Positions 27,190 to 41,659 of a DNA stretch of 43,764 nt are shown here, in pieces. The position numbers were made by a program, and so were the translations under genes. This stretch comes from Bacteroidales bacterium (GTDB taxonomy: Bacteria > Bacteroidota > Bacteroidia > Bacteroidales > JAAUTT01), in contig JANXXY010000224.1 in assembly GCA_025350365.1 (NCBI GenBank), positions 1-43,764 of the forward strand, in the 5' to 3' direction. Every line of letters starts with the position of its first letter. Position 1 is the stretch's first letter. The notes under the pieces are model-generated. The model made no database searches. It was given only the letters and a program-made list of their open reading frames with translations, and was not told where the DNA came from.

Positions 27190-27235
27190 TAATTTGGTAA
27201 AACATTGTGAAAAACTGTAGACTTTCGCTTACAAT

Positions 27236-28117
27236 ATGACGATAACCAGCCTTGATTTGCAACAGTTTATAACTGCTCTAAGAAATTTTTCAACTTATGA
27301 CTTCAGCGAATACTCTGACAAGTCTTTAAAGCGAAGACTAACTAAGGTATTGATTGACTACAAACTTGAATTGGGTGAGTTGATTTCTCAAATGCGAAAC
27401 AATACTCAATTGCTTGAACAAGTAGTTAAAGACATCACTGTAAATACTACCGAACTATTTCGCGACCCTCTGGTATGGCAGCATTTGCGTTATACAATAC
27501 TTCCGAAACTTAAAAATCAACAAACCATTAATATCTGGCATGCAGGATGTTCTACCGGGCAGGAAGTGTATTCCATGATGATGATTTTGAATGAACTTGA
27601 TCTTTTAGAACGCACAAGGATATATGCCAGTGATTTAAATACCGATGTTCTTCAAGCTGCAAAAAAAGGACTATATAAATACCGGTTTAATATCGCATAC
27701 CTAGATAATTTCGACAAAGCGATAAAAGAAAATCCTTTTAATTACGAGCAGTTTTTTGATATTCCTTATTCAAAGTATTTTGAAATAGACAAGGAGAAAG
27801 ATTTTATAAAAATGAATCACTTTCTCACTGAAAAACCAATTTTTAAAAAACTTGATTTAGTTAAGGATAGTAATATTTTTTATGTGAAATTCGATATTAT
27901 CATTTGTAGGAATGTAATTATCTATTTTAATTACGATCTGCAAAATAAAATATTTGAATTGTTTCATAACAATCTGTACAGTAATGGTTATTTATGGCTT
28001 GGCATGCATGAATCCATTCTGGGCCCTTTTGCATCAAAATTTGAAAAAATCGGGCATGTTTATCAAAAAAAGGAAAGTCTGTTTTCGAGTATCGATTATG
28101 GGAAATTGAATAAATAA
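27236..28117 (+). CDS. cheR: CheR-type protein-glutamate O-methyltransferase (motifs intact)
   Basis: YDFSEY...SLKRR, TVNTTELFRD, IWHAGCSTGQEVYS, ASDLN, FDIIICRNVIIYF, GYLWLGMHES. Confidence 0.95.
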   Translation: MTITSLDLQQFITALRNFSTYDFSEYSDKSLKRRLTKVLIDYKLELGELISQMRNNTQLLEQVVKDITVNTTELFRDPLVWQHLRYTILPKLKNQQTINIWHAGCSTGQEVYSMMMILNELDLLERTRIYASDLNTDVLQAAKKGLYKYRFNIAYLDNFDKAIKENPFNYEQFFDIPYSKYFEIDKEKDFIKMNHFLTEKPIFKKLDLVKDSNIFYVKFDIIICRNVIIYFNYDLQNKIFELFHNNLYSNGYLWLGMHESILGPFASKFEKIGHVYQKKESLFSSIDYGKLNK

Positions 28118-28221
28118 TAATATTTATGCTTCAGATATTTAAATATCAACCATAACAAACTATATTTGAAGAAAAGGCAACGAAAATAAATATCGAAACA
28201 TCGAAAATAGTTTAAAATCAA

Positions 28222-30909
28222 ATGATAAGAATTAATCAAAGTATAAAATCAAGACTTCTTCTCTTTACAGGAACTATTGTTTTCCTTTTTGGACTGTTCT
28301 TTATTTTTTTATACAATGATTTTTTCTTCGCTCGCAGAACTATTGAATTCTATAACCGGATAAATATTCTAAATTCTGCACCCGGTCAATTGACTTTGCT
28401 TCATAACTCATTTGTTACGAACGAAATTATAAATGAACGGTATTATTTAACGGGGAAAAGCAAATTACTTGATAGTATATTTAGTACTTCAGAACTATAT
28501 CAAAAGCAACTTGATAGTTTAAATTACCTTCCATATTTTTCACCTCAAGTCGTTACCAGAACTCAAATCAAAGGACTCATTACTCAATGCAAAAAACTTA
28601 GTGATATTTATATTATTCTTAACCAACAAATTATTGGGCGTGGGTATTTGAAAACCGGTGAGGCCGGGGAAGTTGATAGGTTTATAAACTTTTTTATAGA
28701 ATTTGCTGTTGCTGAGAACAATCCAATTCTTATGAAATCTATTGTTGAAATCAATAGAATTCAATCCGCTTATCAATTGGGAAAAACTAACGATCACATT
28801 CAACTTCTTTTCGATAGGGTAGATGCTCTCAAAGTTCTTCTTTCCATAAATGATGTCAAACTTTGCAATGGAATGACAGAGATAAACCGCATGAGGCTTA
28901 TCAAGGAGTTAGAATCATTTGCGGCTCTTATTGGAGAATTACAAAAAACTGACATTAAAATTGGATTTTCTGGTGGTCAGGGAACGATAGGTGATGCCCA
29001 ACTCAAACTCGAAATAATAGGCGATAAATCGCAAAACATTTATAAGGAAATAAAAAATGAGGTCGGTCAGCAAATATTCATTCAGTTTATAATTAAAACA
29101 TCATTGTTAATTATTCTGTTATTATTTTATTTGTGGTTTCTACTTCGATTTTCAAGGACTGTAACATTTGCAATACAACAAATTAAAAATTTTGCTTCGG
29201 AACTGGTTCTGGGAAAATTGCCGAATCCTTTGGAACTTAGTGCATGTGATGAATTAATCTCCATATCAGAACTATCAAATAATTTTGCGAGTAGTTTACG
29301 CGAAAAGATTCATTTTGCGACTAATCTTGGCTCGGGGAAAACGAATGTGACCATGTTACCTCTTAGTGAGGAAGATACAATGGCTAATGCATTGTTAAAC
29401 ATGGAGAAAAGTCTTAAAAAAGCCGTTGAGGAAGATCAGAAATATAAAATTGAAGAGCAAAAACGTGCCTGGACCAATGAAGGACTTGCAAAATTCGGTG
29501 AAATCCTCAGAATGCAAACAGACAATTTGGCGACTTTGTCAGATTCCGTCATTGCTAATCTTGTTAAATACCTTAATGCCAATCAGGGAGGTATTTTTCT
29601 TTACAACAACGATGATAAATCAGACATACATCTGCAACTTATATCGGCATTTGCTTTTGATCGCAAAAAATACCTTACAAAACGAATTGAACTTGGCGAA
29701 GGGTTGATAGGCACTTGTGCCCTCGAAAGGCAAACCATTATAATTACTGATGTCCCAGAAGGATATATGGAAATCACCTCGGGTTTGGGAGAAGCTCCTC
29801 CCCGAAGTATTTTAATTGTTCCATTGCGATCCGAAGAAGTGATTTTTGGTGTTCTGGAAATTGCATCACTTAACTTTTTTCAGCCTCATGAAATAGATTT
29901 TGTTGAAAAAATTGCTCAAAGTACCGCTTCAACTTTTGATACTGTAAAAATTAATATCAACACGTCACGATTATTGGAACAGTCCAAAAAACAAGCTGAA
30001 GAAATGGCGCAACAGGAAGAAGAAATGCGTCAAAACCTTGAAGAATTGCAAGCTACACAGGAAGAATCGGAACGCCGTGAAGCAGAAATCAACAGTTTGT
30101 TAGTGGCCGTGGATGCTTCAGCTTTGGTTATCCAAACTGATATGGAAGGCCGGATAATGGAGGTTAATAAAAAGTTCTCTTTTATCGTAAAAAAACATCG
30201 CGACGAGCTAATTGGAACGTATTTGAGAAATATCTTCACTTTCAATGTCGAGATTGACGAATATTACAATTTATTGCTCGATTTGAAACAGGGTAAATTA
30301 ATCAATCGTAACGAAATATTGGATTTTGAGGATGGAAGTAAAGTTTACCTGGTTTTAAATTATTCTCCAATTCTTGATCGAGACGGGAAACCATATAAAG
30401 TTTTAGGAATTGCTACCAACATTACCGATAAAATAGTACTCGAAAATTCAATCTCCAAAAAAGATATCGAGTTAGGTGAAATGGAATTTCATCTCACTCA
30501 TTTTGATCAACTTATTGATTCAGGATTTATTAGAAGCGAATTATCCGCCGAGTGTATTCTGATGAAGGCAAATGATAACTTTACAGAGGTAACCGGTTAT
30601 ACATCAAAAGAATCCATTGGTAAAGATTATCGAAAGTTTTTAAAACCCGATGAATTAAAGCAATTTGAATTGATTTGGAACGAAGTTCTGAAAGATAAAC
30701 CATACAAAGCAGTTGTTAAAAGGACAATGCCGGCAGGCGATGAGCACTGGTTAATGGCCAGTTTCATACCTTTTAAAAACAAATCAGGAAAAATTACTAA
30801 AGTTATTCTGGTTGCGCAAGATATTACGGAAAAGAAATTAAAATACCAGGTTTTAGAAGAGGCTAATAAAGAGATTGAGCGACTCAAAGGAATGCAAAAT
30901 CAAAGCTGA
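28222..30909 (+). CDS. Membrane sensor: TM, periplasmic region, TM, HAMP-like, GAF, coiled coil, two PAS/PAC; no enzymatic output domain
   Basis: Two TM helices; GAF motifs GEGLIGTCALE and ILIVPL; QQEEEMRQNLEELQATQEE; PAS/PAC motifs DMEGRIMEVN, YSPILDRDG, ANDNF..VTGY, QDITEKK. Confidence 0.88.
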   Translation: MIRINQSIKSRLLLFTGTIVFLFGLFFIFLYNDFFFARRTIEFYNRINILNSAPGQLTLLHNSFVTNEIINERYYLTGKSKLLDSIFSTSELYQKQLDSLNYLPYFSPQVVTRTQIKGLITQCKKLSDIYIILNQQIIGRGYLKTGEAGEVDRFINFFIEFAVAENNPILMKSIVEINRIQSAYQLGKTNDHIQLLFDRVDALKVLLSINDVKLCNGMTEINRMRLIKELESFAALIGELQKTDIKIGFSGGQGTIGDAQLKLEIIGDKSQNIYKEIKNEVGQQIFIQFIIKTSLLIILLLFYLWFLLRFSRTVTFAIQQIKNFASELVLGKLPNPLELSACDELISISELSNNFASSLREKIHFATNLGSGKTNVTMLPLSEEDTMANALLNMEKSLKKAVEEDQKYKIEEQKRAWTNEGLAKFGEILRMQTDNLATLSDSVIANLVKYLNANQGGIFLYNNDDKSDIHLQLISAFAFDRKKYLTKRIELGEGLIGTCALERQTIIITDVPEGYMEITSGLGEAPPRSILIVPLRSEEVIFGVLEIASLNFFQPHEIDFVEKIAQSTASTFDTVKININTSRLLEQSKKQAEEMAQQEEEMRQNLEELQATQEESERREAEINSLLVAVDASALVIQTDMEGRIMEVNKKFSFIVKKHRDELIGTYLRNIFTFNVEIDEYYNLLLDLKQGKLINRNEILDFEDGSKVYLVLNYSPILDRDGKPYKVLGIATNITDKIVLENSISKKDIELGEMEFHLTHFDQLIDSGFIRSELSAECILMKANDNFTEVTGYTSKESIGKDYRKFLKPDELKQFELIWNEVLKDKPYKAVVKRTMPAGDEHWLMASFIPFKNKSGKITKVILVAQDITEKKLKYQVLEEANKEIERLKGMQNQS

Positions 30910-30920
30910 ACAAAATTGAT

Positions 30921-31745
30921 ATGCTGGAATTAGGAATAGTTGAGACAAGGAATATTATTAAAACTATATTAGAAAAGTACAATTACGACTTTTCTGATTA
31001 TTCTTTGACGTCATTCAAACGCCGGCTTGAGAAGATAGTAGATCAGCAAAACCTGAAAAATGTCGATCAGCTGATAATAAAATTGCGAGACAATAATAGT
31101 TATTTTGAACAATTTCTTAATGAATTGGCAACACCATCAACAGAAATGTTTCGTGATCCTTCATTGTGGCGTATTTTAAGGGATGAACTATTGCCTTCAT
31201 TAATAAGCGATTTGGGGTCAAATCTAAAAATATGGCTTCCAAATTCAGTTTCTGGCGACGAACTTTTTTCACTGGTAATTACACTACATGAATTGAATCA
31301 GCTTAATAAAGTTCAAATATATGTTTCCTCTTTAAGTACCGTGTCTCTTGATACTATTAGATCAGGCTTGTTGCTTGCCAGTAAACTTGATTTAAGTGCT
31401 GATAATTATATTCGTGCCAATGGAACTGAGGTTTTCCCGAATTATTATAAAATGGAAAACAATGCCATATATAGAGATACTTCATTAATAAAGAACGTTA
31501 TTTTTTCACGGCAAAACTTGAGTTTGGACCCTCCGGTTCAAGGGATTAAACTTGTTTTGTTCCGAAATAAAATGGTATACTACAATCAAACTCTTCAAAG
31601 TAAGGTTTTAAGACAATTGTTTAGTTCTTTGGTACCAAATGGATACTTAATTGTAGGTGCCAAGGAATCGATAAATACCCTCTATGGGAACAACGAATTT
31701 TCATTAATCAATAATTCTGAAAGTATCTATAAGCGCAAACCATGA
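30921..31745 (+). CDS. cheR: CheR-like protein with degenerate SAM-binding motifs
   Basis: YDFSDYS..SFKRR and TEMFRDP retained; IWLPNSVSGDE, SSLS and LVLFRNKMVYY replace the canonical motifs. Confidence 0.85.
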   Translation: MLELGIVETRNIIKTILEKYNYDFSDYSLTSFKRRLEKIVDQQNLKNVDQLIIKLRDNNSYFEQFLNELATPSTEMFRDPSLWRILRDELLPSLISDLGSNLKIWLPNSVSGDELFSLVITLHELNQLNKVQIYVSSLSTVSLDTIRSGLLLASKLDLSADNYIRANGTEVFPNYYKMENNAIYRDTSLIKNVIFSRQNLSLDPPVQGIKLVLFRNKMVYYNQTLQSKVLRQLFSSLVPNGYLIVGAKESINTLYGNNEFSLINNSESIYKRKP

Positions 31746-32299
31746 TTTATAAAGCAATTATGATAGGCGGATCGGCCGGAAGTTTTCAGGTAGTAACGAA
31801 AATATTAAGTGCTTTGCCAAAGACACTGAATATGCCTCTGTTTTTATGTCTTCATCGGCTAAAGCATGTTCGGTCCGGTTTTCTTGAAGCTTTGTCACTG
31901 AAATCAAATCTTCCGGTTATAGAACCTGACGACAAAGAACAAATTAAACCTGGAAGGGCTTACCTTGCACCTGCAAACTATCATATGTATATTGAACTTG
32001 GAAATAGAATTGCATTGTCTACGGAGGAGCCTGTAAACCATTCGCGGCCATCCATCGATCTTTCGTTTGTTACTGCAGCGCATGCTTACCGCGAAAAACT
32101 CATTGGGATTATTCTGTCTGGCGCTAATAGCGACGGAGCTTACGGGCTAAAAAAAGTGAAAGACTTAAATGGCTTTACAATTGTTCAGGATCCTAATGAA
32201 TGCCAGGTTCGAACGATGACTGAAGCGGCCATGAAAAGCACAAACGTAGATCAGGTTTTATCGACTGACCAGATTATTAAATTTTTACTAAAATTATAA
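31742..32299 (+). CDS. cheB: CheB-type methylesterase, catalytic domain only
   Basis: GGSAG (Ser), CLHR (His), YLAPANYH, SRPSID, LSGANSDG (Asp); 185 aa, no receiver domain. Confidence 0.95.
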   Translation: MIYKAIMIGGSAGSFQVVTKILSALPKTLNMPLFLCLHRLKHVRSGFLEALSLKSNLPVIEPDDKEQIKPGRAYLAPANYHMYIELGNRIALSTEEPVNHSRPSIDLSFVTAAHAYREKLIGIILSGANSDGAYGLKKVKDLNGFTIVQDPNECQVRTMTEAAMKSTNVDQVLSTDQIIKFLLKL

Positions 32300-32312
32300 A
32301 AGAAATAGTTCT

Positions 32313-33077
32313 ATGAAAATGAACCTTTCTTATAAATATCTTAACCTGATTATTTTTCTGCTTATAGTGGCGGTAGTATTCGCTCTTTTTGGTGTGATTA
32401 ATAATATATCCAATGATAATTCAGATAAAATTACATTTGCGTACATTCTGCTTTTTGCAATTCTTTTTCTCATTGTTGTCTGGTTTTTAGTTACATTAAA
32501 AATAGGAAGAATATCCAATGACATTTCGTTGTCCGATAACGCTGATCATGAAATTTTAAATAACACGAGTAATTTCATGTCTAACGACAAAGAGGAAATT
32601 CGTGCAAATAAAAATGAAATTGATGTTTCCCGGATAATTCCAGATAATTGCAAGTCGGTCGAAGAGTTTTCAGAGCATATCCTTCAGAATTTAGCTCAGG
32701 AATTTAATATCGTTCAAGCTTTAATGTATTTGAAAACAGCCGATACCGACAATTACGAATCAATTGCTCAGTATGCTTATTTTTCTGAATCAAAGCCACA
32801 AGCCTTTAAGGCCGGCGAAACATTGCCCGGTCAGGCAATTAAAAACAGAACTATTGTTATGTTAACCGATGTACCTGAAAACTATTTGACCATTGCTTCA
32901 GGATTAGGAAAAAGTGGCATCAAATATTTGGTATTTGTGCCGCTGATTCACAATGATGATGTTGTTGGATTGATCGAATATGCAACTTTTACCCAGATAA
33001 ATGAAGATATAATCAAAATGCTGGGCAATATTGCAGATTTGGTTGCTGAAACTATTGTTAAACTCATAAAAAAGTAA
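32313..33077 (+). CDS. Two-TM membrane protein with a single GAF domain
   Basis: Two TM helices; GETLPGQA, VPENYLTIASGLG and LVFVPL...VVGLIE align with the neighbouring GAF domains. Confidence 0.85.
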   Translation: MKMNLSYKYLNLIIFLLIVAVVFALFGVINNISNDNSDKITFAYILLFAILFLIVVWFLVTLKIGRISNDISLSDNADHEILNNTSNFMSNDKEEIRANKNEIDVSRIIPDNCKSVEEFSEHILQNLAQEFNIVQALMYLKTADTDNYESIAQYAYFSESKPQAFKAGETLPGQAIKNRTIVMLTDVPENYLTIASGLGKSGIKYLVFVPLIHNDDVVGLIEYATFTQINEDIIKMLGNIADLVAETIVKLIKK

Positions 33078-33086
33078 AACAAACAT

Positions 33087-35702
33087 ATGCCGGTAAAGGT
33101 GAACTATATCCTTGATAACGCAAAAGCTCGGGCTGTAATAATCGGAGTGGCAGTGAGCATTGTTGTTCCTGTTATTGCATGGATGATGGATATCATTGTG
33201 GCCGGCCGGATGCTGAGCTTAACAACTCTATTGCAAATACATATCAATCATCCGAGTCTGTTTTTTGTTGATTTAATACCAATTGCTTCCGGAATAATTA
33301 TCTATTTTATAATAAGTATTCGGGAAAAGGATAAGGACTTCTACGAGGGAAAAATCATTAAAAGAGATCACCGCATTAATAAAAACGCCTCATTCGCAAA
33401 ACAAATAGGTGAAGGAGATTATACCAGCCCGTTTGAACCATCGGGTAGTGACGATGCATTAGGCGAATCGTTGCTTTTAATGCGCGATAACCTGATTTTA
33501 AATACCCGCAAAGAAGCTGAACAGAGCTGGATTGCTGCAGGAAAGGAACAAATTTCGAATGTGCTTCGAATTCATAACAAAATTGACGTTCTGGCAAATG
33601 AGACATTGGTTTCACTTACAAAATATATCAATGCCGTTCAGGGCGCATTCTATTTGTTTGAATCGGATAGACAGGTGCTTATAAATATTGCCACTTATGC
33701 TTTTAACCGTAAAAAATTTGTAAATCAGGAGTTTCAGGTAGGTGAGGGGCTGATAGGTGAGTGTGCCTATGAAATGGATCTTATTTATCGTACCGAAATA
33801 CCTGAAGATTATGTTACTATCACCTCGGGTATTTTAGGTGACAAGCGGCCAAAAACAATTCTAATTGTGCCCTTGGTATCAGACGAAAACCTGCAAGGTG
33901 TTATAGAATTTGCGTTTTTACTCGATGAGCTTCCTGCTCTAACGCTTCATTTTATGAAGGAGTTAGGAGAAATTATTGCTCGCACAATTTTTAACCTTCG
34001 TGTAAACGAAAAAACCGAACGTTTGCTTGAGGAGTCGCGCCAAATGACGGGTGAACTTATGGAGAACGAAGAACAACTGCGGCAAAGTGCGGAAGAAATG
34101 CGTGCTACTCAGGAAGAACTACAACGCTCCAACGAAAAACTCGAAGGCCAAATTAACGAAGTCGAAAATGCCCAAAAACGTCTTCATTCGCTTCTCCAAA
34201 ATGCATCCGAAATTATTTTTATTTACGATGAAAGTTTAAATCTGGCATATATTAGTCCTTCAGTTTCCGGCATTTTGGGATTTACACCCGATGAGATGAT
34301 GAAAGGTAAGGATTTTGACCGTCTTACCCGCAAGGGTGAAGTTGAACTCCGGTCCATGTTTAGCCGCTTGCTTGAAAGGCCGGCCGAACCTATTACAATC
34401 CAGTACACTTACATGAAAAAGGATGGACAAAAAATTTTCCTCGAAACTACGGGAAGAAACCTTTTGGCCGACCCTGCACTTCATGGAATCATCCTAAATT
34501 CGCAGGATATAACCGAACGAAAACGAGCAGAAAAAGAAGAGCGGATGAAAAGCAAAATGCAATCCCTCTCTGAGAACTCTCTCGATTTGATTATACGATT
34601 AAATATGCATGGTATGTTTTTCTATGCCAATCCGGTAGTTGAAGATTATATTGGCATAAAAAGTTCTGAAATTTTGAATAAAACTATTCAGGATACTGAG
34701 ATGCCGCCAAATTTGCTTTCCTATTTTCAAACAACCCTCATAGAAGTTAAAGCCTCCCCGCAAAAACGGAATAATCAGATTTCCATTTCAATTCAACTTG
34801 GCGAAAAGATGGCAGAAAGAATCATTAGTCTTGATGCCATACCGGAATTTAATGAAAATGAGCTGGAAACTATATTATTTGTTGGTCATGATATAACTGA
34901 GGCTAAACGTATTGAATTAGAAATTGCCGATAAAAATAGGAAGATCGAGGATAGCATCAACTATGCTCAGCGCATCCAGTCCGCCATTCTTCCCGATAAT
35001 GCATTTATTCGCGATTACCTGCCAAAATCGTTTATTTTTTACAAACCACGCGATGTTGTCAGCGGAGATTTTCCATGGTTCTTTAAACGCGATGATACTT
35101 TATATATTGCAGTAGTGGATTGCACAGGTCACGGTGTGCCCGGCGCGTTGCTTTCATTTGTTGGTTATTTTATTCTTAATAATGTAGTTGACCATGAACG
35201 GGATTATACCGCTGCCGAAGTTTGCGATCTGTTACATAATGGAGTACGTCAAACACTTAAGCAAAATCGCGAAGATGCTCAAGGTCGTGACGGCATGGAT
35301 ATCGCCCTGGTGAAATATAACCCGAAGAAAAACGAAATACATTATGCCGGCGCTCATCGCCCTCTATATTTCTTACGTAATGGTGAATTGACCGAATATA
35401 AGGGTGACAGAAAAGCTATCGGTGGTATCCCTTTGGGGAGTAAACCTGAAAAGAACTTCACTAATTATGTTATTCCCGTGGAAACTGGTGATAAAGTGTT
35501 TTTCTTCTCCGATGGTTTAACTGATCAACTGGGAGGTACCGAATTTAAAAAGTTTTCACCGGCACGCGTGCGGGATATGATCTCACAAAATTCAAATAAT
35601 ACAATGGAAGACTATCATCAATTATTTGATAAAGATTTTTTTGCATGGAAGGGTAACGAAAAGCAAATAGATGATGTTTTATTAATCGGAATAGAATTTT
35701 AA
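33087..35702 (+). CDS. Membrane GAF-coiled coil-PAS-PAS-PP2C (SpoIIE/RsbU-type) phosphatase, SiaA analogue
   Basis: SINYAQRIQSAILP, VSGDF, VVDCTGHGVPGA, FSDGLTDQ, QIDDVLLIG; GAF and PAS motifs upstream. Confidence 0.93.
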   Translation: MPVKVNYILDNAKARAVIIGVAVSIVVPVIAWMMDIIVAGRMLSLTTLLQIHINHPSLFFVDLIPIASGIIIYFIISIREKDKDFYEGKIIKRDHRINKNASFAKQIGEGDYTSPFEPSGSDDALGESLLLMRDNLILNTRKEAEQSWIAAGKEQISNVLRIHNKIDVLANETLVSLTKYINAVQGAFYLFESDRQVLINIATYAFNRKKFVNQEFQVGEGLIGECAYEMDLIYRTEIPEDYVTITSGILGDKRPKTILIVPLVSDENLQGVIEFAFLLDELPALTLHFMKELGEIIARTIFNLRVNEKTERLLEESRQMTGELMENEEQLRQSAEEMRATQEELQRSNEKLEGQINEVENAQKRLHSLLQNASEIIFIYDESLNLAYISPSVSGILGFTPDEMMKGKDFDRLTRKGEVELRSMFSRLLERPAEPITIQYTYMKKDGQKIFLETTGRNLLADPALHGIILNSQDITERKRAEKEERMKSKMQSLSENSLDLIIRLNMHGMFFYANPVVEDYIGIKSSEILNKTIQDTEMPPNLLSYFQTTLIEVKASPQKRNNQISISIQLGEKMAERIISLDAIPEFNENELETILFVGHDITEAKRIELEIADKNRKIEDSINYAQRIQSAILPDNAFIRDYLPKSFIFYKPRDVVSGDFPWFFKRDDTLYIAVVDCTGHGVPGALLSFVGYFILNNVVDHERDYTAAEVCDLLHNGVRQTLKQNREDAQGRDGMDIALVKYNPKKNEIHYAGAHRPLYFLRNGELTEYKGDRKAIGGIPLGSKPEKNFTNYVIPVETGDKVFFFSDGLTDQLGGTEFKKFSPARVRDMISQNSNNTMEDYHQLFDKDFFAWKGNEKQIDDVLLIGIEF

Positions 35703-35732
35703 TTTTACTCTTAAACTAATACTTTAACTGAT

Positions 35733-36317
35733 ATGGGCACAAATGAAAAGAAGGATGTAAGAGGATTCCTCGAATTTGTATATGAGTTTTATAAATCAAT
35801 GAAGGAACATGAGATTACGCTGGTATACGAGGGTGAAATAACACACCAAATAACAAAAGCCTTCACTTCTCTTACCGAATCTAATATGGCAAAAGAAGAA
35901 GAGTCTAATTTAGTTCAAAAAAAGGTTTTTCATGTGATGGTTGAATGTTTACAAAATATCAGCAAACACGCCGATGATTATGGCGCTAACGATTATTTGT
36001 TTTCCGGAAGAGGCATATTTTTAGTTTCGAAAGGGAAAGATGAGTATTCCGTTACTACAGGCAACGCAATTGACCACACCCGTATGCCGGAATTGAAACG
36101 TATGCTTGAACAAGTAAATAGTCTGGATAAAGAAGAACTTACCGAACTTTACAAGAAACAGATTAAGGAAGGCAGATTGTCCGATAAGGGAGGTGCCGGA
36201 TTAGGCTTTATTGATATTAAGCGGAAAACCGGGCGTAATCTTGAGTATCACTTTTTGCCTATAAACGATGTCTCATCGTTCTTTTTATTAACATCAACTA
36301 TTTCACGAAATGCTTAA
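35733..36317 (+). CDS. siaB: SiaB-family (DUF6272) GHKL protein kinase
   Basis: LVYEG, KKVFHVMVECLQNISKH, TGN, GGAGLGFIDI.RK; adjacent to a SiaC-like gene. Confidence 0.87.
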   Translation: MGTNEKKDVRGFLEFVYEFYKSMKEHEITLVYEGEITHQITKAFTSLTESNMAKEEESNLVQKKVFHVMVECLQNISKHADDYGANDYLFSGRGIFLVSKGKDEYSVTTGNAIDHTRMPELKRMLEQVNSLDKEELTELYKKQIKEGRLSDKGGAGLGFIDIKRKTGRNLEYHFLPINDVSSFFLLTSTISRNA

Positions 36318-36341
36318 TGCTTAAATAATAATATTGAAGCT

Positions 36342-36719
36342 ATGGAAGTTTTCAAAATTTTGGGTACTGACGATACCCCTGGTGTAACGCTGGATGCGGC
36401 TAACGACATATTTGAAATTTCAGGTCGGTCGCTACCGGAGGATGTAAATGCATTTTACAAACCTATTATTGATTGGATGGATAAGTACAACTTGGCTCCA
36501 AAAGCAAAAACCATCTTTTATTTCAGATTGGTTTATTTTAATACTGCTTCGTCAAAGATGTTACTCGATGTTCTTATGAAATTGGAGGAACTCTATAAAT
36601 CAGGGAATGATGTTGTTGTTCGGTGGCAATATCCTGATGATGACGAAGATATGAAAGAGGCTGGCGAGGAATATGCTGACATTGTTGACGTTCCATTCGA
36701 GCAAATTGAAATATCCTGA
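36342..36719 (+). CDS. siaC: SiaC-family (DUF1987) phosphoprotein
   Basis: TP.V, ISGRSLPED...FY.PI..W, YFNTASSK (Thr68), W.Y..DDEDM.EAGEEY. Confidence 0.9.
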   Translation: MEVFKILGTDDTPGVTLDAANDIFEISGRSLPEDVNAFYKPIIDWMDKYNLAPKAKTIFYFRLVYFNTASSKMLLDVLMKLEELYKSGNDVVVRWQYPDDDEDMKEAGEEYADIVDVPFEQIEIS

Positions 36720-36833
36720 TTTGTATCCTGTGGGCACTTCAATTGGCCTATACCAACGAAAACTGTATAATCATAATCAATCAAATGTGCCAGAGCCCCG
36801 ATATATATGGCTTTTCATCAGTAATATAATTTT

Positions 36834-39800
36834 ATGAGTGAAGAGATTTTAAAAGCGTTAATGCAACTGTTTGCGATTATTGCTAAACAGGACGAGGGTG
36901 TGGAACTTAGCGAGCGTGAGTACGTTAAAACCTTTTTGACCCTTCAACTGAGTGATGAAGCCGTAAACGAATATTTGATTCTGTTTGATAGTTTTGCAGG
37001 TCTTGATAAAACTGTTGACGAAAACGGTGTTGAGATTGCAAGGAAAAAACTGACTTCTGTTAAAGATTCGGTTCGTATTCTGGGTATTTGTAAAAAAATC
37101 AACAAAACACTTACTCAGGAACAAAAAGTAGTAGTCTTGGTTCGACTTTTTGAGTTGGTAAATGCGGACCGTAAATTTACCGATCAGCGAATGGCTATCA
37201 TCAATACGGTGGCCGAAGTTTTTAATCTTCCCAGAGAAGAATTTAAAAGCATTGAGACTTTTGTAGTTAAAAACCGACCTGAAGCGCTTGATCAACCTGA
37301 TGTTTTAGTTATTGCCGATAAGCCTGTTGTAAACCTGCAAAGTAAATTTATTCTCACTGAAAAACTTGACGGCAACCTCTATATTCTCAGGATTGCCAGT
37401 GTTGATCTGTATTTTCTGAAATATACAGGGCATGAAGATCTATTTTTGAATGGCCTCGGAATTACCAATAGACGCATCTATTTATACGCCAGCGGAAGTG
37501 CCGTAAAAATGCCTAAAGGAAAGCCGGTTTATTACAGTGATGTTGTAGCGCACTACCTTGCTGATATTACTTCGAACAAAATATCATTCGAAGTGAATAA
37601 CCTCGAATTTCGATTCCCTAATGGAAATATTGGACTGCGAAACGTTAGCTTTTCTGAAGGTCAGGGAAAACTGATTGGTATTATGGGAGCCAGTGGAGCA
37701 GGTAAAACTACGTTGTTGAATGTATTATGCGGAACGGAGTTACCTTACAAAGGAGAAGTGATTATTAACGGTCACAATCTTCATAAAGAGAAAGATAAAG
37801 TGGAGGGAGTTATTGGTCTTATTCCTCAGGACGACCTTTTAATCGAAGAATTAACCGTTTTTGAAAATCTATATTATAACGCAAAACTGTGTTTTAAGAA
37901 CCAAACTGAAGAACAGATTAACGAACGTGTCGTTCGAACACTTTCAAGTCTTGGACTTTTAGAACGTAAGGATCTCAAAGTCGGATCGCCACTGAACAAA
38001 ACCATTAGTGGTGGACAACGGAAACGCTTGAATATCGCGCTTGAATTAATTCGCGAACCGTCTATCTTGTTTGTTGATGAGCCTACCTCCGGACTTTCGT
38101 CGAGAGATTCCGAAAACGTGATGGACTTATTACGGGAACTTGCATTGAAAGGAAAACTTATTTTTGTAGTAATTCACCAGCCGTCGTCGGAAATTTATAA
38201 GATGTTCGACAAAATGATTATCCTGGATACGGGAGGATACCTAATATATTATGGCAACCCAGTTGAAGCTGTGATGTATTTTAAAAGAATTGACGCTCAA
38301 ATTAACAGCAATGTAGGAGAGTGTCCCGTTTGTGGAAATGTGAATCCCGAACTTATTTTTAACATTATTGAAGCCAAGGTTGTTGACGAGTTTGGCAGGT
38401 ATACTGATAAACGCAAAGTACAACCGCCGAAATGGGAGGGATTTTACTCTGAAAATTTTCATCCTGAAAAGATGCAGGTAATCAGCGAGGATCCGCCAAA
38501 ATCATTAAATATCCCAAACTGGATCAACCAGATTAAGATTTATACAGTTCGTGATTTTGTTTCTAAAATAAGCAATACCCAATATATATCGCTTAATCTT
38601 CTGGATGCTCCCCTGCTGGGATTAATTCTTGCATATGTTATCAGGTATATTTCCGACCCGGGTTCGGATGTGTATATTTTTAGAGAAAATGAAAATATTC
38701 CGGTTTATATTTTCATGAGTCTCATTGTGGCTTTGTTTCTGGGCTTAATCGTTAGTGCCGAAGAAATATTTCGCGATCGTAAAATACTCAAACGCGAAGG
38801 TTTTCTTAATTTGAGCCGTTCAAGCTATCTATTATCTAAAATATTTATATTATTAGTAATTAGCGCTATACAAAGTTTAACATTTGTACTTATTGCGAAC
38901 TCAATTCTGGGAATTAACGGAATGTATTTTACGTACTGGTTTGCCCTATTCACTACGGCTGCTTTTGCTAACATGTTAGGGTTAAATGTTTCAGCTTCAT
39001 TTAATTCAGCTGTAACTATATATATTCTTATTCCACTGCTTATGATCCCTATGATGATCCTAAGCGGGGCAATGTTTCGTTTTGATAAACTTAACCGTAA
39101 TGTTGGTAGTGTGGATAAGGTTCCTCTGTTGGCTGAAATAATGGTAACTCGTTGGGCTTATGAGGCCTTGGTGGTTCATCAATTTAAAGACAATCAATTT
39201 GAAAAAGCATTTTACGATATTGAGAAACGTGAAAGCAACGCTGATTTTAAACAGGTGCATCTTATACCCGAACTTCAAAAACGACTGGACGATTGCAACG
39301 CTGAATTCTCAAAGTTTGGAAAAATAGAGAAAACCAATGTTCAGCTTGATGTTCTAAAGAACGAAATATCCAAAGAATTGATGATTAATATGGATCTTCC
39401 ATTTAAAAATGCAGATGGAATAATAGCTGAAAAATATAGTGCCAGGATGGCTAAAGCATTACAATCTTTTATTGATAGAATGAAAGCTGATTATTCAGGG
39501 AAATTTATGCAAGCCAACAAAGAAAAGGAAGATAAAATAAATAGAGAACTTAAAAAGGATCCTGAAAGATATAAGCAGTATAAAAACGTGTACCATAACG
39601 AAAATTTGTCGGATTTGGTGCGGAAAGTGCTTGAAAAAAATAAAATATTAGAATATAATCACGAATTGGTTCAGCAGGTAGATCCAATTTATATGGATCC
39701 TACCATTCGGGGACCTTTAAGTTTGCGATCTCATTTTTTTGCCCCTCGCAAACCATTTTTTGGCGTTTATTATGATACATACTGGTACAATATGATTGTA

Positions 39801-39908
39801 GTATGGTTATTTACTGTCATTCTTTATCTGGCTCTCTATTACGAGTGGTTTTTAAGATTTATGAATATGTTCGGAAAACTTAAACTTAAAAAGGAAAGTT
39901 CAGAATAA
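36834..39908 (+). CDS. ABCG-type (NBD before TMD) ABC transporter with an N-terminal TerB-like domain
   Basis: Walker A GASGAGKTT, ISGGQRKR, Walker B ILFVDEPT, IHQP, ABC-2-type TMD; helical N-terminus resembling TerB; CPVC at 38322-38333. Confidence 0.9.
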   Translation: MSEEILKALMQLFAIIAKQDEGVELSEREYVKTFLTLQLSDEAVNEYLILFDSFAGLDKTVDENGVEIARKKLTSVKDSVRILGICKKINKTLTQEQKVVVLVRLFELVNADRKFTDQRMAIINTVAEVFNLPREEFKSIETFVVKNRPEALDQPDVLVIADKPVVNLQSKFILTEKLDGNLYILRIASVDLYFLKYTGHEDLFLNGLGITNRRIYLYASGSAVKMPKGKPVYYSDVVAHYLADITSNKISFEVNNLEFRFPNGNIGLRNVSFSEGQGKLIGIMGASGAGKTTLLNVLCGTELPYKGEVIINGHNLHKEKDKVEGVIGLIPQDDLLIEELTVFENLYYNAKLCFKNQTEEQINERVVRTLSSLGLLERKDLKVGSPLNKTISGGQRKRLNIALELIREPSILFVDEPTSGLSSRDSENVMDLLRELALKGKLIFVVIHQPSSEIYKMFDKMIILDTGGYLIYYGNPVEAVMYFKRIDAQINSNVGECPVCGNVNPELIFNIIEAKVVDEFGRYTDKRKVQPPKWEGFYSENFHPEKMQVISEDPPKSLNIPNWINQIKIYTVRDFVSKISNTQYISLNLLDAPLLGLILAYVIRYISDPGSDVYIFRENENIPVYIFMSLIVALFLGLIVSAEEIFRDRKILKREGFLNLSRSSYLLSKIFILLVISAIQSLTFVLIANSILGINGMYFTYWFALFTTAAFANMLGLNVSASFNSAVTIYILIPLLMIPMMILSGAMFRFDKLNRNVGSVDKVPLLAEIMVTRWAYEALVVHQFKDNQFEKAFYDIEKRESNADFKQVHLIPELQKRLDDCNAEFSKFGKIEKTNVQLDVLKNEISKELMINMDLPFKNADGIIAEKYSARMAKALQSFIDRMKADYSGKFMQANKEKEDKINRELKKDPERYKQYKNVYHNENLSDLVRKVLEKNKILEYNHELVQQVDPIYMDPTIRGPLSLRSHFFAPRKPFFGVYYDTYWYNMIVVWLFTVILYLALYYEWFLRFMNMFGKLKLKKESSE

Positions 39909-39962
39909 TTACTAAATTTGTATAAACAGCAATCAAACAAACAATAATCTAATTATGCTGCT

Positions 39963-40865
39963 ATGATTAAGAGACTGACTTATTTATTTTTATGTAGTGT
40001 ATTTGTGTTTTATTCATGCAAATCCGGAGTTAAGAAAAGCAAAGGAGAATTTGGAGAAAATGATAGTATAAAAGCAGATAGCGCCTTGCCGGTTTCAAAA
40101 GAAGCAATGGCTGATCTCGTACAAAATATTTCATCTCCCATTGAAATGGCAGCTTTAATTAAGAGTCTGGGCGTGCCCTTTTCACAAAAATATTTAGCCC
40201 CTACAAACCATCTTGATAACTTTAACACAAATACCTCAAAGGCTGTTAATTTAGGCATTTTTGGAGCCGACCTTGGATATATAAACATGTATAGTAAAAC
40301 GTCAACTGTTCTTTCGTATATCTCAGCAGTTAAAACATTGGCTGATGGGATTAACGTAGGTCAATTTTTTGATTTTACTACGCTAAAAAGGCTGGCCACA
40401 AATAACGAAAATATTGATTCGTTAATGTATATTTCCATACATAGTTTTAATGTAATGGATGAGTATTTGCGTAAAAACAACCGCAGTAACCTCAGCGCTC
40501 TTATGATTGCAGGCGTTTATATTGAGGGGTTGTATCTTATGACTCAGGTAGCAAAAGAAAAACCTAATAAAAAATTGGCAGAAAGCATTGGAGACCAAAA
40601 AATTATTTTTGAACAGATGTTACTGATTTTGAAAAACTATCAGAAGGATCCTTATTTTAAAGATTTTATTGCCAATATGGAAACGCTTAAAAAGGAGTTT
40701 TCGGAAATTAAAATAACCATCGAAATGGGTGAACCTAAATCAGTTGAAAAAAATGGAATGCTTACTATTATTCAAACATCAAAAAGTACTGTTCATATTA
40801 CGGATGAACAGTTAAAGAGAATTATATCTCAAACTGAAATAATTAGAAATAAGCTGATTAAGTAA
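39963..40865 (+). CDS. Hypothetical lipoprotein, probably alpha-helical
   Basis: Signal peptide II ending VFYSC (Cys19); internal motifs AVNLGIFGADLGY and AGVYIEGLY. Confidence 0.8.
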   Translation: MIKRLTYLFLCSVFVFYSCKSGVKKSKGEFGENDSIKADSALPVSKEAMADLVQNISSPIEMAALIKSLGVPFSQKYLAPTNHLDNFNTNTSKAVNLGIFGADLGYINMYSKTSTVLSYISAVKTLADGINVGQFFDFTTLKRLATNNENIDSLMYISIHSFNVMDEYLRKNNRSNLSALMIAGVYIEGLYLMTQVAKEKPNKKLAESIGDQKIIFEQMLLILKNYQKDPYFKDFIANMETLKKEFSEIKITIEMGEPKSVEKNGMLTIIQTSKSTVHITDEQLKRIISQTEIIRNKLIK

Positions 40866-40949
40866 TAAGTTGTAAATAAATCGCTCTGACATATTTTGTG
40901 GGTAAAGTGGTTTGAATATCTTTTATAAAATAATCAAAAAAAGTGTACA

Positions 40950-41393
40950 ATGAAGCATATAACATTCATCCTTGCGATTGTTTTCCTGTCAATAGGTTAT
41001 GCAGCAAACGCGCAAACTGAAGCGCAAAAAGTTGAAATTTGTTCAGGTACAGCCGGTCCTGATGCTTCTTATCTAAAAGATTTTGTTGTTGATTTACCTG
41101 CAGCTCAAGGAGATGAAAAAGCCCCTACTGCTAAATATTCTCTTATTCTTCAAAAGGATACTAAATATCGTATCACAATCTGCACTGATGACGATTCACC
41201 AGGGAAAGGATATGTACAACTTTTAGATACAAATTCGCTATTGGGAAGTTCCTTTAATCCACAGACTGGAAAGGAATACAAAGGATTTGACTTCGATTGT
41301 CAGAAAAGTAGTGTTTATCACATTTTTATCCAGTTTCAGGAAGGCAAGGCAGGTAAATCAATTGTAATTCTTTCGTTTATCAAAAAATTATAA
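40950..41393 (+). CDS. Hypothetical secreted beta-rich protein
   Basis: Signal peptide ending ANA-Q; three Cys; alternating beta-strand pattern. Confidence 0.8.
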   Translation: MKHITFILAIVFLSIGYAANAQTEAQKVEICSGTAGPDASYLKDFVVDLPAAQGDEKAPTAKYSLILQKDTKYRITICTDDDSPGKGYVQLLDTNSLLGSSFNPQTGKEYKGFDFDCQKSSVYHIFIQFQEGKAGKSIVILSFIKKL

Positions 41394-41446
41394 ATATTAA
41401 AAGTCGTAAGTAAACTGAAAACGGTAAAATTTTATTGAATAATTAC

Positions 41447-41478
41447 AAAAGGTTGGTTCGGAGAGTCAACCTTTTTTT
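41447..41478 (+). terminator. Rho-independent terminator closing the signalling cluster
   Basis: AAAAGGTTG...CAACCTTTT stem running into a T tract. Confidence 0.75.
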
Positions 41479-41659
41479 ATTGCTTTGTATTCAGAAGCTT
41501 GATAGAGATTAACTTTTTTAATAGCTAAATAAAAAACAGAATGTCAGAAGGGCATCATTTTTGATATACATTTTTGTTTTTTAAGTAATAAGGCGTTGAG
41601 CAGAACAAAGCATTTCGTTTAGGTTTTGCTATATAAACGAAAATTTATAGTTTCATTAT

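What the first reader, a model, noticed from the sequence alone, without database searches (positions are those of the whole stretch)
27236..41478. Candidate new signalling system: CheR/CheB methylation wired to a SiaABC phospho-switch and an ABC transporter, without CheA, CheW or MCP
Seen: 11 co-oriented, closely spaced genes ending at a terminator: CheR, GAF/PAS sensor, degenerate CheR, CheB, GAF protein, GAF/PAS-PP2C phosphatase, SiaB, SiaC, TerB-ABCG, lipoprotein, secreted protein. The window has no histidine kinase, CheW, CheY or MCP signalling domain. Known: CheR/CheB reversibly methylate chemoreceptor glutamates, and Pseudomonas aeruginosa SiaA (PP2C) and SiaB (kinase) set the phosphorylation of SiaC. 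Inference: an adaptation module has been repurposed to tune a Ser/Thr phosphatase pathway. I know of no characterised system with this layout but cannot exclude one.
Basis: partly seen in the sequence, partly recalled or inferred. Interest (0 to 1): 0.88.

Follow-up and report, generated by a model that had tools for sequence, protein, structure and literature searches.

The report
Methylation-tuned phosphatase switch beside ABC transporter
A conserved Bacteroidota operon joins chemotaxis-type methylation enzymes to a phosphatase/kinase/phosphoprotein switch and an ABC exporter, suggesting that the "memory" chemistry of chemotaxis is used here to tune a transporter rather than movement.

Summary
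The 11 genes are real and are as described. The two halves are linked far beyond chance. CheB lies directly upstream of the PP2C gene in 15 of 20 assessable loci from relatives. It does so in 62 of 65 loci from Bacteroidales and Cytophagales.

New evidence:
- The PP2C and the 895-aa sensor each carry a coiled coil after the GAF domain. It has heptad-spaced Glu-Glu pairs and matches the chemoreceptor methylation consensus EExxA(S/T).
- In this genome the strict motif occurs in only 4 ORFs, all fused to or beside CheB or CheR.
- One 99%-complete relative has the cluster and a single CheB, but no MCP and no CheW.
- A complex model docks the SiaC phospho-threonine face on the transporter's TerB domain: 0.64 against 0.00 in controls.

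Corrections:
- This genome does encode MCPs and a CheW elsewhere.

Verdict: a new variant. It is a MAC-type adaptation module wired to a SiaABC-like switch with a transporter output. Every mechanistic step is inferred.

The parts
27236..28117 (+). CheR1, a protein-glutamate methyltransferase of 293 aa with an intact SAM motif (IWHAGCSTGQEVY).
   Evidence: Pfam CheR 7.5e-38. Alignment to PDB 5ftw. Orthologues are 47-96% identical in relatives.
28222..30909 (+). Membrane sensor with no enzymatic output, 895 aa. Order: TM, about 250-aa outside domain, TM, HAMP-like segment, GAF, methylation-like coiled coil, PAS, PAS.
   Evidence: Pfam GAF 435-571 and two PAS domains, nothing for residues 1-430. 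Sequence. This gene is absent from some orthologous loci (L049, L051).
29983..30087 (+). Candidate methyl-accepting coil of the sensor, residues 588-622. It has four heptad-spaced EE pairs (E593/594, E600/601, E607/608, E614/615), with A-T after the third.
   Evidence: Heptad layout. Conserved in orthologues. The DNA pattern hits at 30040-30066.
30921..31745 (+). CheR2, a divergent CheR paralogue of 274 aa. Its stop overlaps the cheB start by 4 nt.
   Evidence: Pfam CheR 2.3e-20. Altered motif I. Kept as a separate lineage even in the five unlinked modules L060-L064.
31742..32299 (+). CheB methylesterase catalytic domain only (185 aa). It has no receiver domain.
   Evidence: Pfam CheB_methylest 4.5e-49. 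The Ser, His and Asp positions align with PDB 3sft. The closest paralogue (42%) is the CheB beside a hybrid HK on C304.
32313..33077 (+). Small protein with two TM helices and a GAF domain (254 aa). It always follows this CheB, even where the module is unlinked from the Sia genes.
   Evidence: Pfam GAF_2 2.2e-14. Sequence. Synteny. It is the fastest-evolving gene of the cluster.
33087..35702 (+). SiaA-like membrane phosphatase of 871 aa. Order: TM segments, GAF, methylation-like coiled coil, PAS, PAS, PP2C (SpoIIE type).
   Evidence: Pfam SpoIIE 2.1e-20 plus GAF and PAS. The metal-site motifs SGD, DCTGHG and SDG are invariant in 15 orthologues (A1).
34038..34142 (+). Candidate methyl-accepting coil of the phosphatase, residues 318-352. 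Heptad-spaced pairs are E329/Q330, E336/E337 and E343/E344, with A340-T341.
   Evidence: Conservation compared with CheB adjacency. The DNA pattern hits at 34092-34118.
35733..36317 (+). SiaB-family protein kinase (194 aa).
   Evidence: Pfam DUF6272 1.9e-40. NCBIfam SiaB_fam_kinase 167 bits against a cut-off of 85. Matches PDB 6kko chain A at 1.1e-11.
36342..36719 (+). SiaC-family phosphoprotein (125 aa). Thr68 lies in an invariant YFNTASSK loop.
   Evidence: Pfam SiaC 1.8e-39. Alignment to P. aeruginosa SiaC 6kko_C. Invariant columns in 51 sequences (A2).
36834..39908 (+). ABCG-type half transporter of 1024 aa. It has an N-terminal cytoplasmic TerB domain, a nucleotide-binding domain, an ABC-2 membrane domain and a C-terminal extension. 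I read it as the output of the switch.
   Evidence: Pfam TerB, ABC_tran and ABC2_membrane. It is adjacent to SiaC in every orthologous locus that reaches that far. SiaC docks on TerB residues 73-87 and 118-129 in the model.
39963..40865 (+). Lipoprotein of 300 aa, with a signal peptide and an invariant Cys19. The model is a helical bundle plus a four-strand sheet. No known family.
   Evidence: No informative structural match. Paralogues also pair with TerB-ABC paralogues on C364 and C65.
40950..41393 (+). Small secreted protein of 147 aa with a signal peptide. No known family.
   Evidence: Present in most orthologous loci.
41447..41485 (+). Intrinsic-terminator-like hairpin (13-bp stem) with a T run, closing the gene row.

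Best explanation
This is one signalling operon built from two conserved units.

Unit 1 is a MAC-type adaptation module (MAC = methyl-accepting coiled coil). It comprises CheR1, CheR2, a receiver-less CheB and a small TM-GAF protein.

Unit 2 is a SiaABC-like partner switch with its output. It comprises a membrane GAF-coil-PAS-PAS-PP2C phosphatase, a SiaB-family kinase, a SiaC-family phosphoprotein, a TerB-ABCG transporter, a lipoprotein and a secreted protein.

Proposed mechanism, every step inferred:
1. CheR methylates Glu pairs, and CheB demethylates or deamidates Glu/Gln pairs. These pairs sit at heptad spacing on the coiled coil between the GAF and PAS domains of the phosphatase, and on the equivalent coil of the output-less 895-aa co-sensor.
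2. The methylation level sets the gain or set-point with which GAF/PAS signals reach the PP2C domain.
3. PP2C and SiaB together set the phosphorylation of SiaC Thr68.
4. Unphosphorylated SiaC docks by its Thr68 face on the cytoplasmic TerB domain of the ABCG transporter and changes export. Phosphorylation would break this contact.
5. The lipoprotein and the secreted protein are envelope partners or cargo of the transporter.
For: Gene content is.

Linkage of the two units:
- CheB is upstream of the PP2C in 15 of 20 assessable loci from relatives: 22 orthologous loci, 2 cut by contig ends, 5 without CheB.
- It is upstream in 62 of 65 loci with a full-length PP2C and at least 3 kb of upstream sequence, among the best 80 of 594 hits in Bacteroidales and Cytophagales.
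- In the 5 unlinked genomes the CheR1-CheR2-CheB-TMGAF unit survives intact elsewhere.

The coil:
- The PP2C coil reads EQ/EE/EE and the sensor coil EE/EE/EE/EE at exact 7-residue spacing, followed by A-T.
[quoted passage not shown] It also fits the heptad-spaced sites 297/304/311 of Tsr (PMC1079850, passages).
- A strict motif scan of 4117 six-frame ORFs of the own genome finds 4 ORFs. They are these two, a CheB-CheR fusion, and a GAF-PAS gene beside a REC-CheB.

Order-wide association with CheB (121 genomes):
- The motif's DNA pattern occurs in 59 genomes, against 1 hit in total for the reversed-pattern control. CheB occurs in 77.
- My hand tally gives motif+CheB+ 56, motif+CheB- 3, motif-CheB+ 21 and motif-CheB- 41.
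- Of 129 merged motif loci among the listed rows, 41 lie within about 3.5 kb of a listed CheB.

Glu/Gln pairs in the PP2C coil compared with CheB adjacency:
- At least 2 of the 3 pairs are intact in 58 of 73 CheB-adjacent loci.
- They are intact in 2 of 8 loci that lack CheB.

Independence from MCPs: genome G037 (99% complete) has the cluster and exactly one CheB match. It has no MCPsignal match and no CheW match.

The switch: the SiaB NCBIfam subfamily model is passed. SiaC Thr68 and its loop are invariant in 51 sequences and align with the P. aeruginosa phospho-Thr68.

The output:
- SiaC is followed by the TerB-ABC gene in all loci that extend that far.
- The complex model of SiaC with TerB-ABC residues 1-500 scores ipSAE 0.64, against a best of 3 controls of 0.00.
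- That mark was reached by 58 of 80 solved complexes and 2 of 110 mismatched pairs.
- The runs share at least 98% of their contacts and the partner pLDDT is at least 90.
- The interface is SiaC 63-72 and 103-114 against TerB 73-87 and 118-129.
- TerB L73, S79, V80 and Q118 are invariant in 49 orthologues. They are not kept in the Sia-unlinked paralogue on C364.
Against: - No methylation, phosphorylation, binding or transport was measured.
- The pair-conservation link is imperfect. Fifteen of 73 CheB-adjacent loci have 1 or fewer intact pairs in the PP2C coil, mainly the Saccharicrinis/Marinilabiliaceae group and some Cytophagales. One unlinked locus (L054) keeps all three.
- Relatives are not independent, and the 80 loci were chosen by similarity to a profile built mostly from linked loci.
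- EE-rich heptad coils could be conserved for structural reasons.
- 88 of the 129 listed motif loci are not near a listed CheB.
- This genome and its genus have MCPs, CheW and CheA-like genes, so cross-talk is possible.
- The complex pass could partly reflect the solved SiaC-SiaD complex, which uses the same SiaC face. My own alignments were used, so the calibration counts hold only roughly.
- The MiST MAC profile HMMs could not be run, and the defining paper (Wuichet and Zhulin 2010) could not be read.
Confidence: 0.58

Rival explanations
1. CheR and CheB methylate only the output-less co-sensor, the TM-GAF protein, or both. The PP2C is then controlled indirectly, by hetero-oligomerisation, and its own coil is not a substrate.
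For: The sensor coil has four clean EE pairs, and it is conserved in orthologues and in GAF/PAS genes upstream of unlinked PP2Cs (L053, L056). In 15 of 73 CheB-adjacent loci the PP2C pairs are degenerate. TM-GAF is the one gene that always travels with CheB.
Against: Loci L049 and L051 have no sensor gene between CheR1 and CheR2, yet they keep a perfect PP2C motif. The PP2C pairs decay in 6 of 8 loci that lack an adjacent CheB. TM-GAF has no EE-pair coil.
Confidence: 0.2
2. The cluster's CheR and CheB are ordinary adaptation enzymes for canonical MCPs encoded elsewhere. On this view, adjacency to the Sia genes reflects co-expression only.
For: The own genome has 4 MCP genes with EE(I/V)SSSME sites and one CheW. 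Same-genus genomes have CheA-like/CheW sets. 52 of 121 genomes of the order have MCPs.
Against: G037 (99% complete) has the cluster with its only CheB, but no MCPsignal and no CheW match. Canonical operons in these genomes carry their own REC-CheB and CheR, for example G011:C2 and G034:C81. In the own genome no CheR or CheB lies beside an MCP or CheW on the contigs held. Synteny with the PP2C holds across two orders.
Confidence: 0.07
3. The two units are neighbours without any biochemical connection. The EE-rich coil is just a dimerisation or signalling helix, and SiaC acts on a target other than the transporter.
For: The units are separate in 5 of 20 relatives. Many motif loci are far from CheB. 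TerB-ABC plus lipoprotein pairs exist without Sia genes (C364, C65). The genome has 12 SiaC-family genes and only 2 SiaB-family genes.
Against: The motif's phyletic pattern tracks CheB: 56 of 59 motif genomes have CheB. The strict motif is found only in CheB- or CheR-associated ORFs of this genome. The SiaC-TerB model passes its controls, with Thr68 in the interface.
Confidence: 0.12

Closest known systems
MAC (methyl-accepting coiled-coil) systems, type MAC2. Defined by Wuichet and Zhulin in 2010 (paper not held, so known here from recall and from passages in PMC6943060 and bioRxiv 10.1101/2022.05.07.491037).
   Same: Separate CheR and CheB genes sit beside non-MCP sensor proteins that carry a coiled coil with methylation-like Glu pairs. 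No CheA or CheW is in the locus. The own genome also has a textbook MAC2-like locus (CheR, CheB and a CHASE3-GAF-coil-HisKA-HATPase-REC hybrid HK on C304). It also has a MAC1-like fusion on C323.
   Different: MAC proteins are described as containing kinase domains. Here the coil-bearing proteins have a PP2C phosphatase output or no output at all. The downstream pathway is a Ser/Thr partner switch and a transporter, not His-Asp phosphotransfer. There are two CheR paralogues and an obligatory TM-GAF partner.
SiaABCD of Pseudomonas aeruginosa (PMC8457831, passages).
   Same: It has a PP2C phosphatase, a SiaB-family kinase and a DUF1987/SiaC phosphoprotein with the same N-T-(S/A)-S loop and Thr68. 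Unphosphorylated SiaC binds a helical region of its target through that loop.
   Different: There is no SiaD diguanylate cyclase and no GGDEF domain in the cluster. The adjacent, modelled target is a TerB-ABCG transporter. The phosphatase has GAF-coil-PAS-PAS input, and CheR/CheB genes lie upstream. The NCBIfam equivalog models for SiaB and SiaC are not reached (74.9 against 225 bits; 81.9 against 150 bits).
Canonical chemotaxis adaptation: CheR and CheB acting on MCP methylation helices.
   Same: The enzyme families are the same, with the catalytic residues aligned. The substrate logic is also the same: heptad-spaced Glu/Gln pairs on a coiled coil within an EExxA(S/T)-like context.
   Different: The locus has no MCPsignal domain, CheA, CheW or CheY. 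CheB lacks the receiver domain, so it cannot be driven by CheA feedback.
RsbU/RsbV/RsbW-type partner-switching systems with sensor-fused PP2C phosphatases (from general knowledge).
   Same: A sensor-domain PP2C and an antagonistic kinase together set the phosphorylation of a small STAS-like protein, which then chooses its binding partner.
   Different: The output is neither a sigma factor nor a cyclase. An input layer of glutamate methylation has not been described for these systems in the literature I could search.

Membership tests
MAC2-type methyl-accepting coiled-coil system | Separate CheB- and CheR-related genes associated with the coil-bearing protein. | tested here: met
   CheR1, CheR2 and CheB are in the same gene row. 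The arrangement is conserved in 62 of 65 loci.
MAC2-type methyl-accepting coiled-coil system | A coiled coil with chemoreceptor-like methylation sites in a protein that is not an MCP. | tested here: met
   This is met by sequence only. Heptad-spaced EE/EQ pairs followed by A-T are present in the PP2C and the sensor. Neither has an MCPsignal domain. Methylation itself was not tested.
MAC2-type methyl-accepting coiled-coil system | A kinase domain in the MAC protein, as described in bioRxiv 10.1101/2022.05.07.491037. | tested here: not met
   Neither coil-bearing protein has HisKA or HATPase. One ends in SpoIIE/PP2C and the other has no output domain.
MAC2-type methyl-accepting coiled-coil system | A match to the MiST MAC1/MAC2 and class-specific CheB/CheR profile HMMs. 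| not testable with these tools
   These HMMs are not in Pfam or NCBIfam (PMC6943060) and are not available here.
SiaABCD pathway | A SiaB-family kinase. | tested here: met
   NCBIfam SiaB_fam_kinase scores 167.4 bits against a cut-off of 85. The SiaB equivalog model is not reached, at 74.9 against 225 bits.
SiaABCD pathway | A DUF1987/SiaC phosphoprotein with the phospho-acceptor Thr68. | tested here: met
   Pfam SiaC 1.8e-39. N67-T68 align with P. aeruginosa SiaC and are invariant in 51 sequences. The equivalog model is not reached, at 81.9 against 150 bits.
SiaABCD pathway | A PP2C phosphatase encoded upstream (SiaA). | tested here: met
   SpoIIE/PP2C domain at residues 669-870, with invariant metal-site motifs. 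The input domains differ from SiaA; that difference is stated from recall and was not tested.
SiaABCD pathway | A SiaD diguanylate cyclase as the SiaC target. | tested here: not met
   No GGDEF domain is found in any ORF of the cluster or the window.
Canonical chemosensory pathway | CheA, CheW and MCP together with CheR and CheB. | tested here: not met
   None are in the window. G037 has the cluster but no MCPsignal or CheW in a 99%-complete genome.
ABCG-type (ABC-2) exporter | A nucleotide-binding domain N-terminal to an ABC-2 membrane domain in a single polypeptide. | tested here: met
   ABC_tran at 268-419 and ABC2_membrane at 566-782. The best NCBIfam model, TIGR00955, scores 267 bits, below its cut-off of 736.

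The most novel reading that the evidence does not exclude
Reversible glutamate methylation by CheR and CheB acts directly on a Ser/Thr phosphatase. This would give sensory adaptation, or memory, to a partner-switching pathway. That pathway's phosphoprotein then gates an ABC exporter by docking on its TerB domain. It would be the first case of chemotaxis-style adaptation controlling a transporter through a phospho-switch. It would also be the first assigned role for a TerB domain as a SiaC receptor, and a tractable entry into the uncharacterised MAC class.
Probability: 0.4. Interest if true: 0.85.

Novelty: new variant of a known kind. Interest (0 to 1): 0.7.

Why it matters
MAC-type CheR/CheB systems are widespread. 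A 2022 preprint describes them as not experimentally characterised in any respect. SiaC/DUF1987 proteins are also widespread, but only one target, SiaD, is known.

This operon links the two. It offers concrete residues to test:
- PP2C E329-E344.
- Sensor E593-E615.
- SiaC T68.
- TerB residues 73-87 and 118-129.

Relatives with named strains carry it, among them Chryseolinea lacunae, Shiella aurantiaca and Saccharicrinis sp. (record titles). If it works as proposed, methylation-based adaptation is a general input layer for bacterial signalling and is not specific to motility. ABC exporters could then be gated post-translationally by a partner switch.

Tried and rejected
Searches and checks that gave nothing usable:
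- Literature searches found no paper that links these parts. The queries were CheR+CheB+SiaC, DUF1987+partner-switching+Bacteroidetes, non-MCP CheR/CheB, the CheB-CheR fusion and the peptide motif itself. The claim 'not in print' rests only on these searches of the held library.
- Only two held papers mention MAC proteins. Wuichet and Zhulin 2010 (PMC3401578) is not held, so it may already list phosphatase-type MAC outputs. Supplements were not opened and may bear on this.
- Lipoprotein fold: the model has pLDDT 86.8. Foldseek against the PDB gave no match at E of 0.001 or better. VIA-align wide gave a best Z of 7.2, with generic helical bundles only. The protein atlas returned only unnamed Bacteroidota clusters. 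Its function stays unknown.
- Expression: no RNA holder was listed for the stretch, and read laying was not used.
- H-kinase_dim was not found in the own genome. That genome is 85% complete and same-genus genomes have CheA-like ORFs, so I do not read this as absence.
- The sigma-70 promoter scan did not rise above the shuffles, at 64 sites against 56.2 +/- 7.3. A TAnnTTTG-like word about 45 nt upstream of cheR1 is a recalled Bacteroidota consensus and was not tested.
- I first took the PP2C motif to be strictly tied to CheB adjacency. The larger set showed 15 exceptions among 73 loci, so the claim was softened.
- The 2x2 table and the 41-of-129 proximity count are hand tallies. They use the listed rows only: 150 of 254 pattern rows and 150 of 170 CheB rows.
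- The neighbourhoods of the 10 other SiaC paralogues were listed but not annotated.

Full report
OBSERVATION. The window is contig C156 of a metagenome-assembled genome of 483 contigs, 85% complete. Eleven co-oriented ORFs run from 27236 to 41393. Spacing ranges from a 4-nt overlap (cheR2/cheB) to 114 nt. A hairpin with a 13-bp stem and a T run lies at 41447-41475.

Pfam and NCBIfam give, in order:
- CheR1.
- An 895-aa GAF-PAS-PAS protein. Its first 430 residues match no family.
- A weaker CheR (CheR2).
- A CheB catalytic domain without a receiver.
- A 254-aa TM+GAF protein.
- An 871-aa GAF-PAS-PAS-SpoIIE/PP2C protein.
- A SiaB-family kinase (167 bits, cut-off 85).
- A SiaC-family protein.
- A TerB-ABC_tran-ABC2_membrane protein of 1024 aa.
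- A 300-aa lipoprotein and a 147-aa secreted protein, neither with a family.

The other window ORFs of 110 aa or more are a nuo operon, sugar-utilisation genes and hypotheticals. None has an HK, CheW, CheY or MCP domain.

Catalytic residues:
- CheR1 has an intact SAM motif.
- CheR2 has an altered motif I but keeps other aligned key residues.
- CheB keeps the aligned Ser, His and Asp.

THE GENOME IS NOT CHE-FREE. The own genome has 4 MCPsignal genes and one CheW, which sits beside housekeeping genes. It has 5 CheR and 6 CheB matches. No H-kinase_dim match was found.

Same-genus genomes that are 98-100% complete have several CheW genes. Each is next to a roughly 690-aa ORF with a CheW-like domain, which I read as CheA. 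So 'no CheA, CheW or MCP' describes the locus, not the organism.

ARE THE HALVES LINKED? A SiaB orthologue (59-100% identity) was found in 23 of 40 relatives. I fetched the 22 orthologous loci and mapped the window's proteins onto them. PP2C, SiaB and SiaC are in all 22, followed by TerB-ABC, the lipoprotein and the secreted protein wherever the fetched stretch or contig reaches that far. CheR2-CheB-TMGAF lies directly upstream in 15 loci, 2 loci are cut by contig ends, and 5 lack it.

In those 5 genomes an intact CheR1-CheR2-CheB-TMGAF four-gene unit sits elsewhere. The cluster is therefore two conserved units that are usually fused.

A profile of 15 PP2C orthologues (A1) was scanned against one genome per GTDB species. 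It returned 594 confirmed hits, of which the best 80 were kept. They come from:
- Bacteroidales MAGs: Tenuifilaceae, Salinivirgaceae, Marinilabiliaceae, Saccharicrinis, Draconibacterium.
- Cytophagales: Chryseolinea, Shiella, Marivirga, Ohtaekwangia, Cyclobacteriaceae.

Of 65 loci with a full-length orthologue and at least 3 kb of upstream sequence, 62 have CheB upstream. The exceptions are L094, L104 and L140.

A CANDIDATE METHYLATION SITE. Directly after the GAF domain, the sensor and the PP2C each have a coiled coil. Written in heptads, the PP2C reads ..EQL / RQSAEEM / RATQEEL and the sensor reads ..AEE / MAQQEEE / MRQNLEE / LQATQEE. These are Glu-Glu or Glu-Gln pairs at exact 7-residue spacing, with Ala-Thr four residues after a pair.

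In a six-frame scan of the own genome (4117 ORFs of 100 aa or more), a strict version of the motif occurs in 4 ORFs:
- The two in this cluster.
- A CheB-CheR-PAS_10-PAS fusion on C323, with a run of EELQSTN heptads.
- A GAF-PAS gene next to a REC-CheB on C379.

A looser motif adds a paralogue on C16 with no Che gene nearby. It also adds the four true MCPs, with EE(I/V)SSSME.

Across 121 genomes of the order, a DNA pattern for the motif occurs in 59 genomes, against a single hit in total for the reversed-pattern control. CheB occurs in 77. By my hand tally 56 of the 59 motif genomes have CheB, against 21 of the 62 without the motif. Of 129 merged motif loci among the listed rows, 41 lie within about 3.5 kb of a listed CheB. 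By my own arithmetic, well under 1% would do so by chance.

DO THE PP2C SITES TRACK CheB? I counted how many of the three pair positions hold only E or Q. The count covers combined, with two duplicate records dropped.
- 73 CheB-adjacent loci: 39 have three intact pairs, 19 have two, 10 have one and 5 have none.
- 8 loci lacking CheB: 1 has three, 1 has two, 4 have one and 2 have none.

The trend supports the PP2C coil being a substrate, but it is not clean. A Saccharicrinis/Marinilabiliaceae group and some Cytophagales have CheB adjacent and degenerate pairs, and L054 keeps all pairs without an adjacent CheB. Kin are not independent. In some lineages only the co-sensor may be methylated; this is rival 1.

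NOT SIMPLY MCP ADAPTATION. Genome G037 (99% complete, 50 contigs) carries the row sensor, CheR2, CheB, TMGAF, PP2C, SiaB, SiaC, TerB-ABC, lipoprotein, secreted protein (L058). It has exactly one CheB match, no MCPsignal match and no CheW match. Its CheR1-like gene is on another contig.

Elsewhere, canonical operons carry their own REC-CheB and CheR, for example G011:C2 and G034:C81.

THE SWITCH AND ITS OUTPUT. The SiaC loop Y65-F-N-T68-A-S-S-K72 is invariant in 51 sequences (A2). It aligns with the P. aeruginosa N67-T68-S69 loop. There, Thr68 is phosphorylated by SiaB, and the loop inserts between the stalk helices of SiaD (PMC8457831, passages).

No GGDEF protein is present here. The gene after siaC is always the TerB-ABC gene.

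I modelled SiaC with residues 1-500 of the transporter, using my own alignments (A2, A3):
- The median ipSAE was 0.64, against a best of three controls of 0.00.
- That mark was reached by 58 of 80 solved complexes and 2 of 110 mismatched pairs.
- The runs shared at least 98% of their contacts, and the partner pLDDT was at least 90.
- The interface is SiaC 63-72 (including T68) and 103-114 against TerB 73-87 and 118-129.

TerB L73, S79, V80 and Q118 are invariant in 49 orthologues. They differ in the Sia-unlinked paralogue on C364 and partly in the one on C65.

The pass may owe something to the solved SiaC-SiaD complex, which uses the same SiaC face. It shows support, not binding.

WHAT IS KNOWN. 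[quoted passage not shown] In MAC1 the CheB and CheR domains are fused in, and in MAC2 they are separate. The class is attributed to Wuichet and Zhulin 2010 in PMC6943060 (passages).

The preprint 10.1101/2022.05.07.491037 (passages) describes MAC proteins as including apparent chemoreceptor and kinase domains. It says they are not experimentally characterised in any respect. I could not read the 2010 paper.

The own genome has a MAC1-like fusion on C323. It also has a MAC2-like CheR, CheB and CHASE3-GAF-coil-hybrid HK locus on C304, whose coil reads EELQTQQEELKHMNEELEEQ. The cluster's CheB is closest (42%) to that MAC2-like CheB.

The present cluster fails one stated MAC feature, the kinase domain. 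It also fails one Sia feature, the SiaD cyclase. I therefore file it as a new variant that joins the two, not as a member of either. No held paper links CheR/CheB with SiaC, DUF1987 or PP2C.

MECHANISM (inferred).
1. CheR1 and CheR2 add methyl groups to the coil Glu pairs of the PP2C and the co-sensor. CheB removes them, and may deamidate Q330.
2. CheB has no receiver domain. Feedback, if any, may come through the TM-GAF protein that always accompanies it.
3. The methylation level biases signal transmission from GAF/PAS to the PP2C.
4. The balance between PP2C and SiaB sets SiaC-T68 phosphorylation.
5. Unphosphorylated SiaC docks on the TerB domain and alters export.

The transporter's substrate is unknown. 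The lipoprotein has a confident model (pLDDT 86.8) but no informative structural relative.

VERDICT. The novelty is a new variant of known kinds. Interest is 0.7.

Noticed in passing
Own genome, contigs C203, C164, C2, C342, C126, C146, C207, C88, C107, C106, C93: The genome has 12 SiaC-family (PF09345) genes but only 2 SiaB-family (DUF6272) genes. Ten SiaC paralogues therefore have no cognate SiaB-type kinase nearby. Relatives have up to 16 SiaB-like matches, some as tandem double-domain ORFs.
   Followed up: partly
G000:C323:395-3325 (L032): A MAC1-like fusion protein: CheB, CheR, a run of EELQSTN heptads, PAS_10, PAS. The same architecture recurs in many genomes of the order, with the motif 1.5-2 kb downstream of the CheB domain in the same ORF.
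   Followed up: partly
G000:C304:645-5819 (L026): CheR and a REC-less CheB lie directly upstream of a CHASE3-GAF-coiled-coil-HisKA-HATPase hybrid kinase with three receiver domains. This is a MAC2-like locus, and its CheB is the closest paralogue of the cluster's CheB.
   Followed up: partly
G000:C379:2036-6882 (L027): A REC-CheB at a contig end is followed by a GAF-PASx3 protein with the EELQATQEE coil, and then by an HK-REC protein. In same-genus G011 the equivalent CheB sits in a CheA-like/CheW/CheR operon. Canonical Che operons here may therefore also feed a MAC-type protein.
   Followed up: partly
G000:C407:1-1738 (L033): A stand-alone CheB catalytic-domain gene lies immediately downstream of a KaiC-family ATPase gene.
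   Followed up: no
G000:C364:3965-10237 (L030) and C65:4228-7275 (L031): Paralogous pairs of the lipoprotein and a TerB-ABC gene occur without Sia genes. On C364 they are next to LptC-related and weak FadL-like genes. This hints at an envelope or lipid export role for the transporter family.
   Followed up: partly
window 27183-27190: A TAGCTTTG word lies about 45 nt upstream of the cheR1 start. It fits the Bacteroidota -7 promoter consensus TAnnTTTG as I recall it. It was not tested.
   Followed up: no
window 11361-14199: Four ORFs of 110-312 aa have no Pfam match. They lie between the nuo operon and a thioredoxin-like gene, in the lowest-GC part of the window, 0.31-0.36.
   Followed up: no
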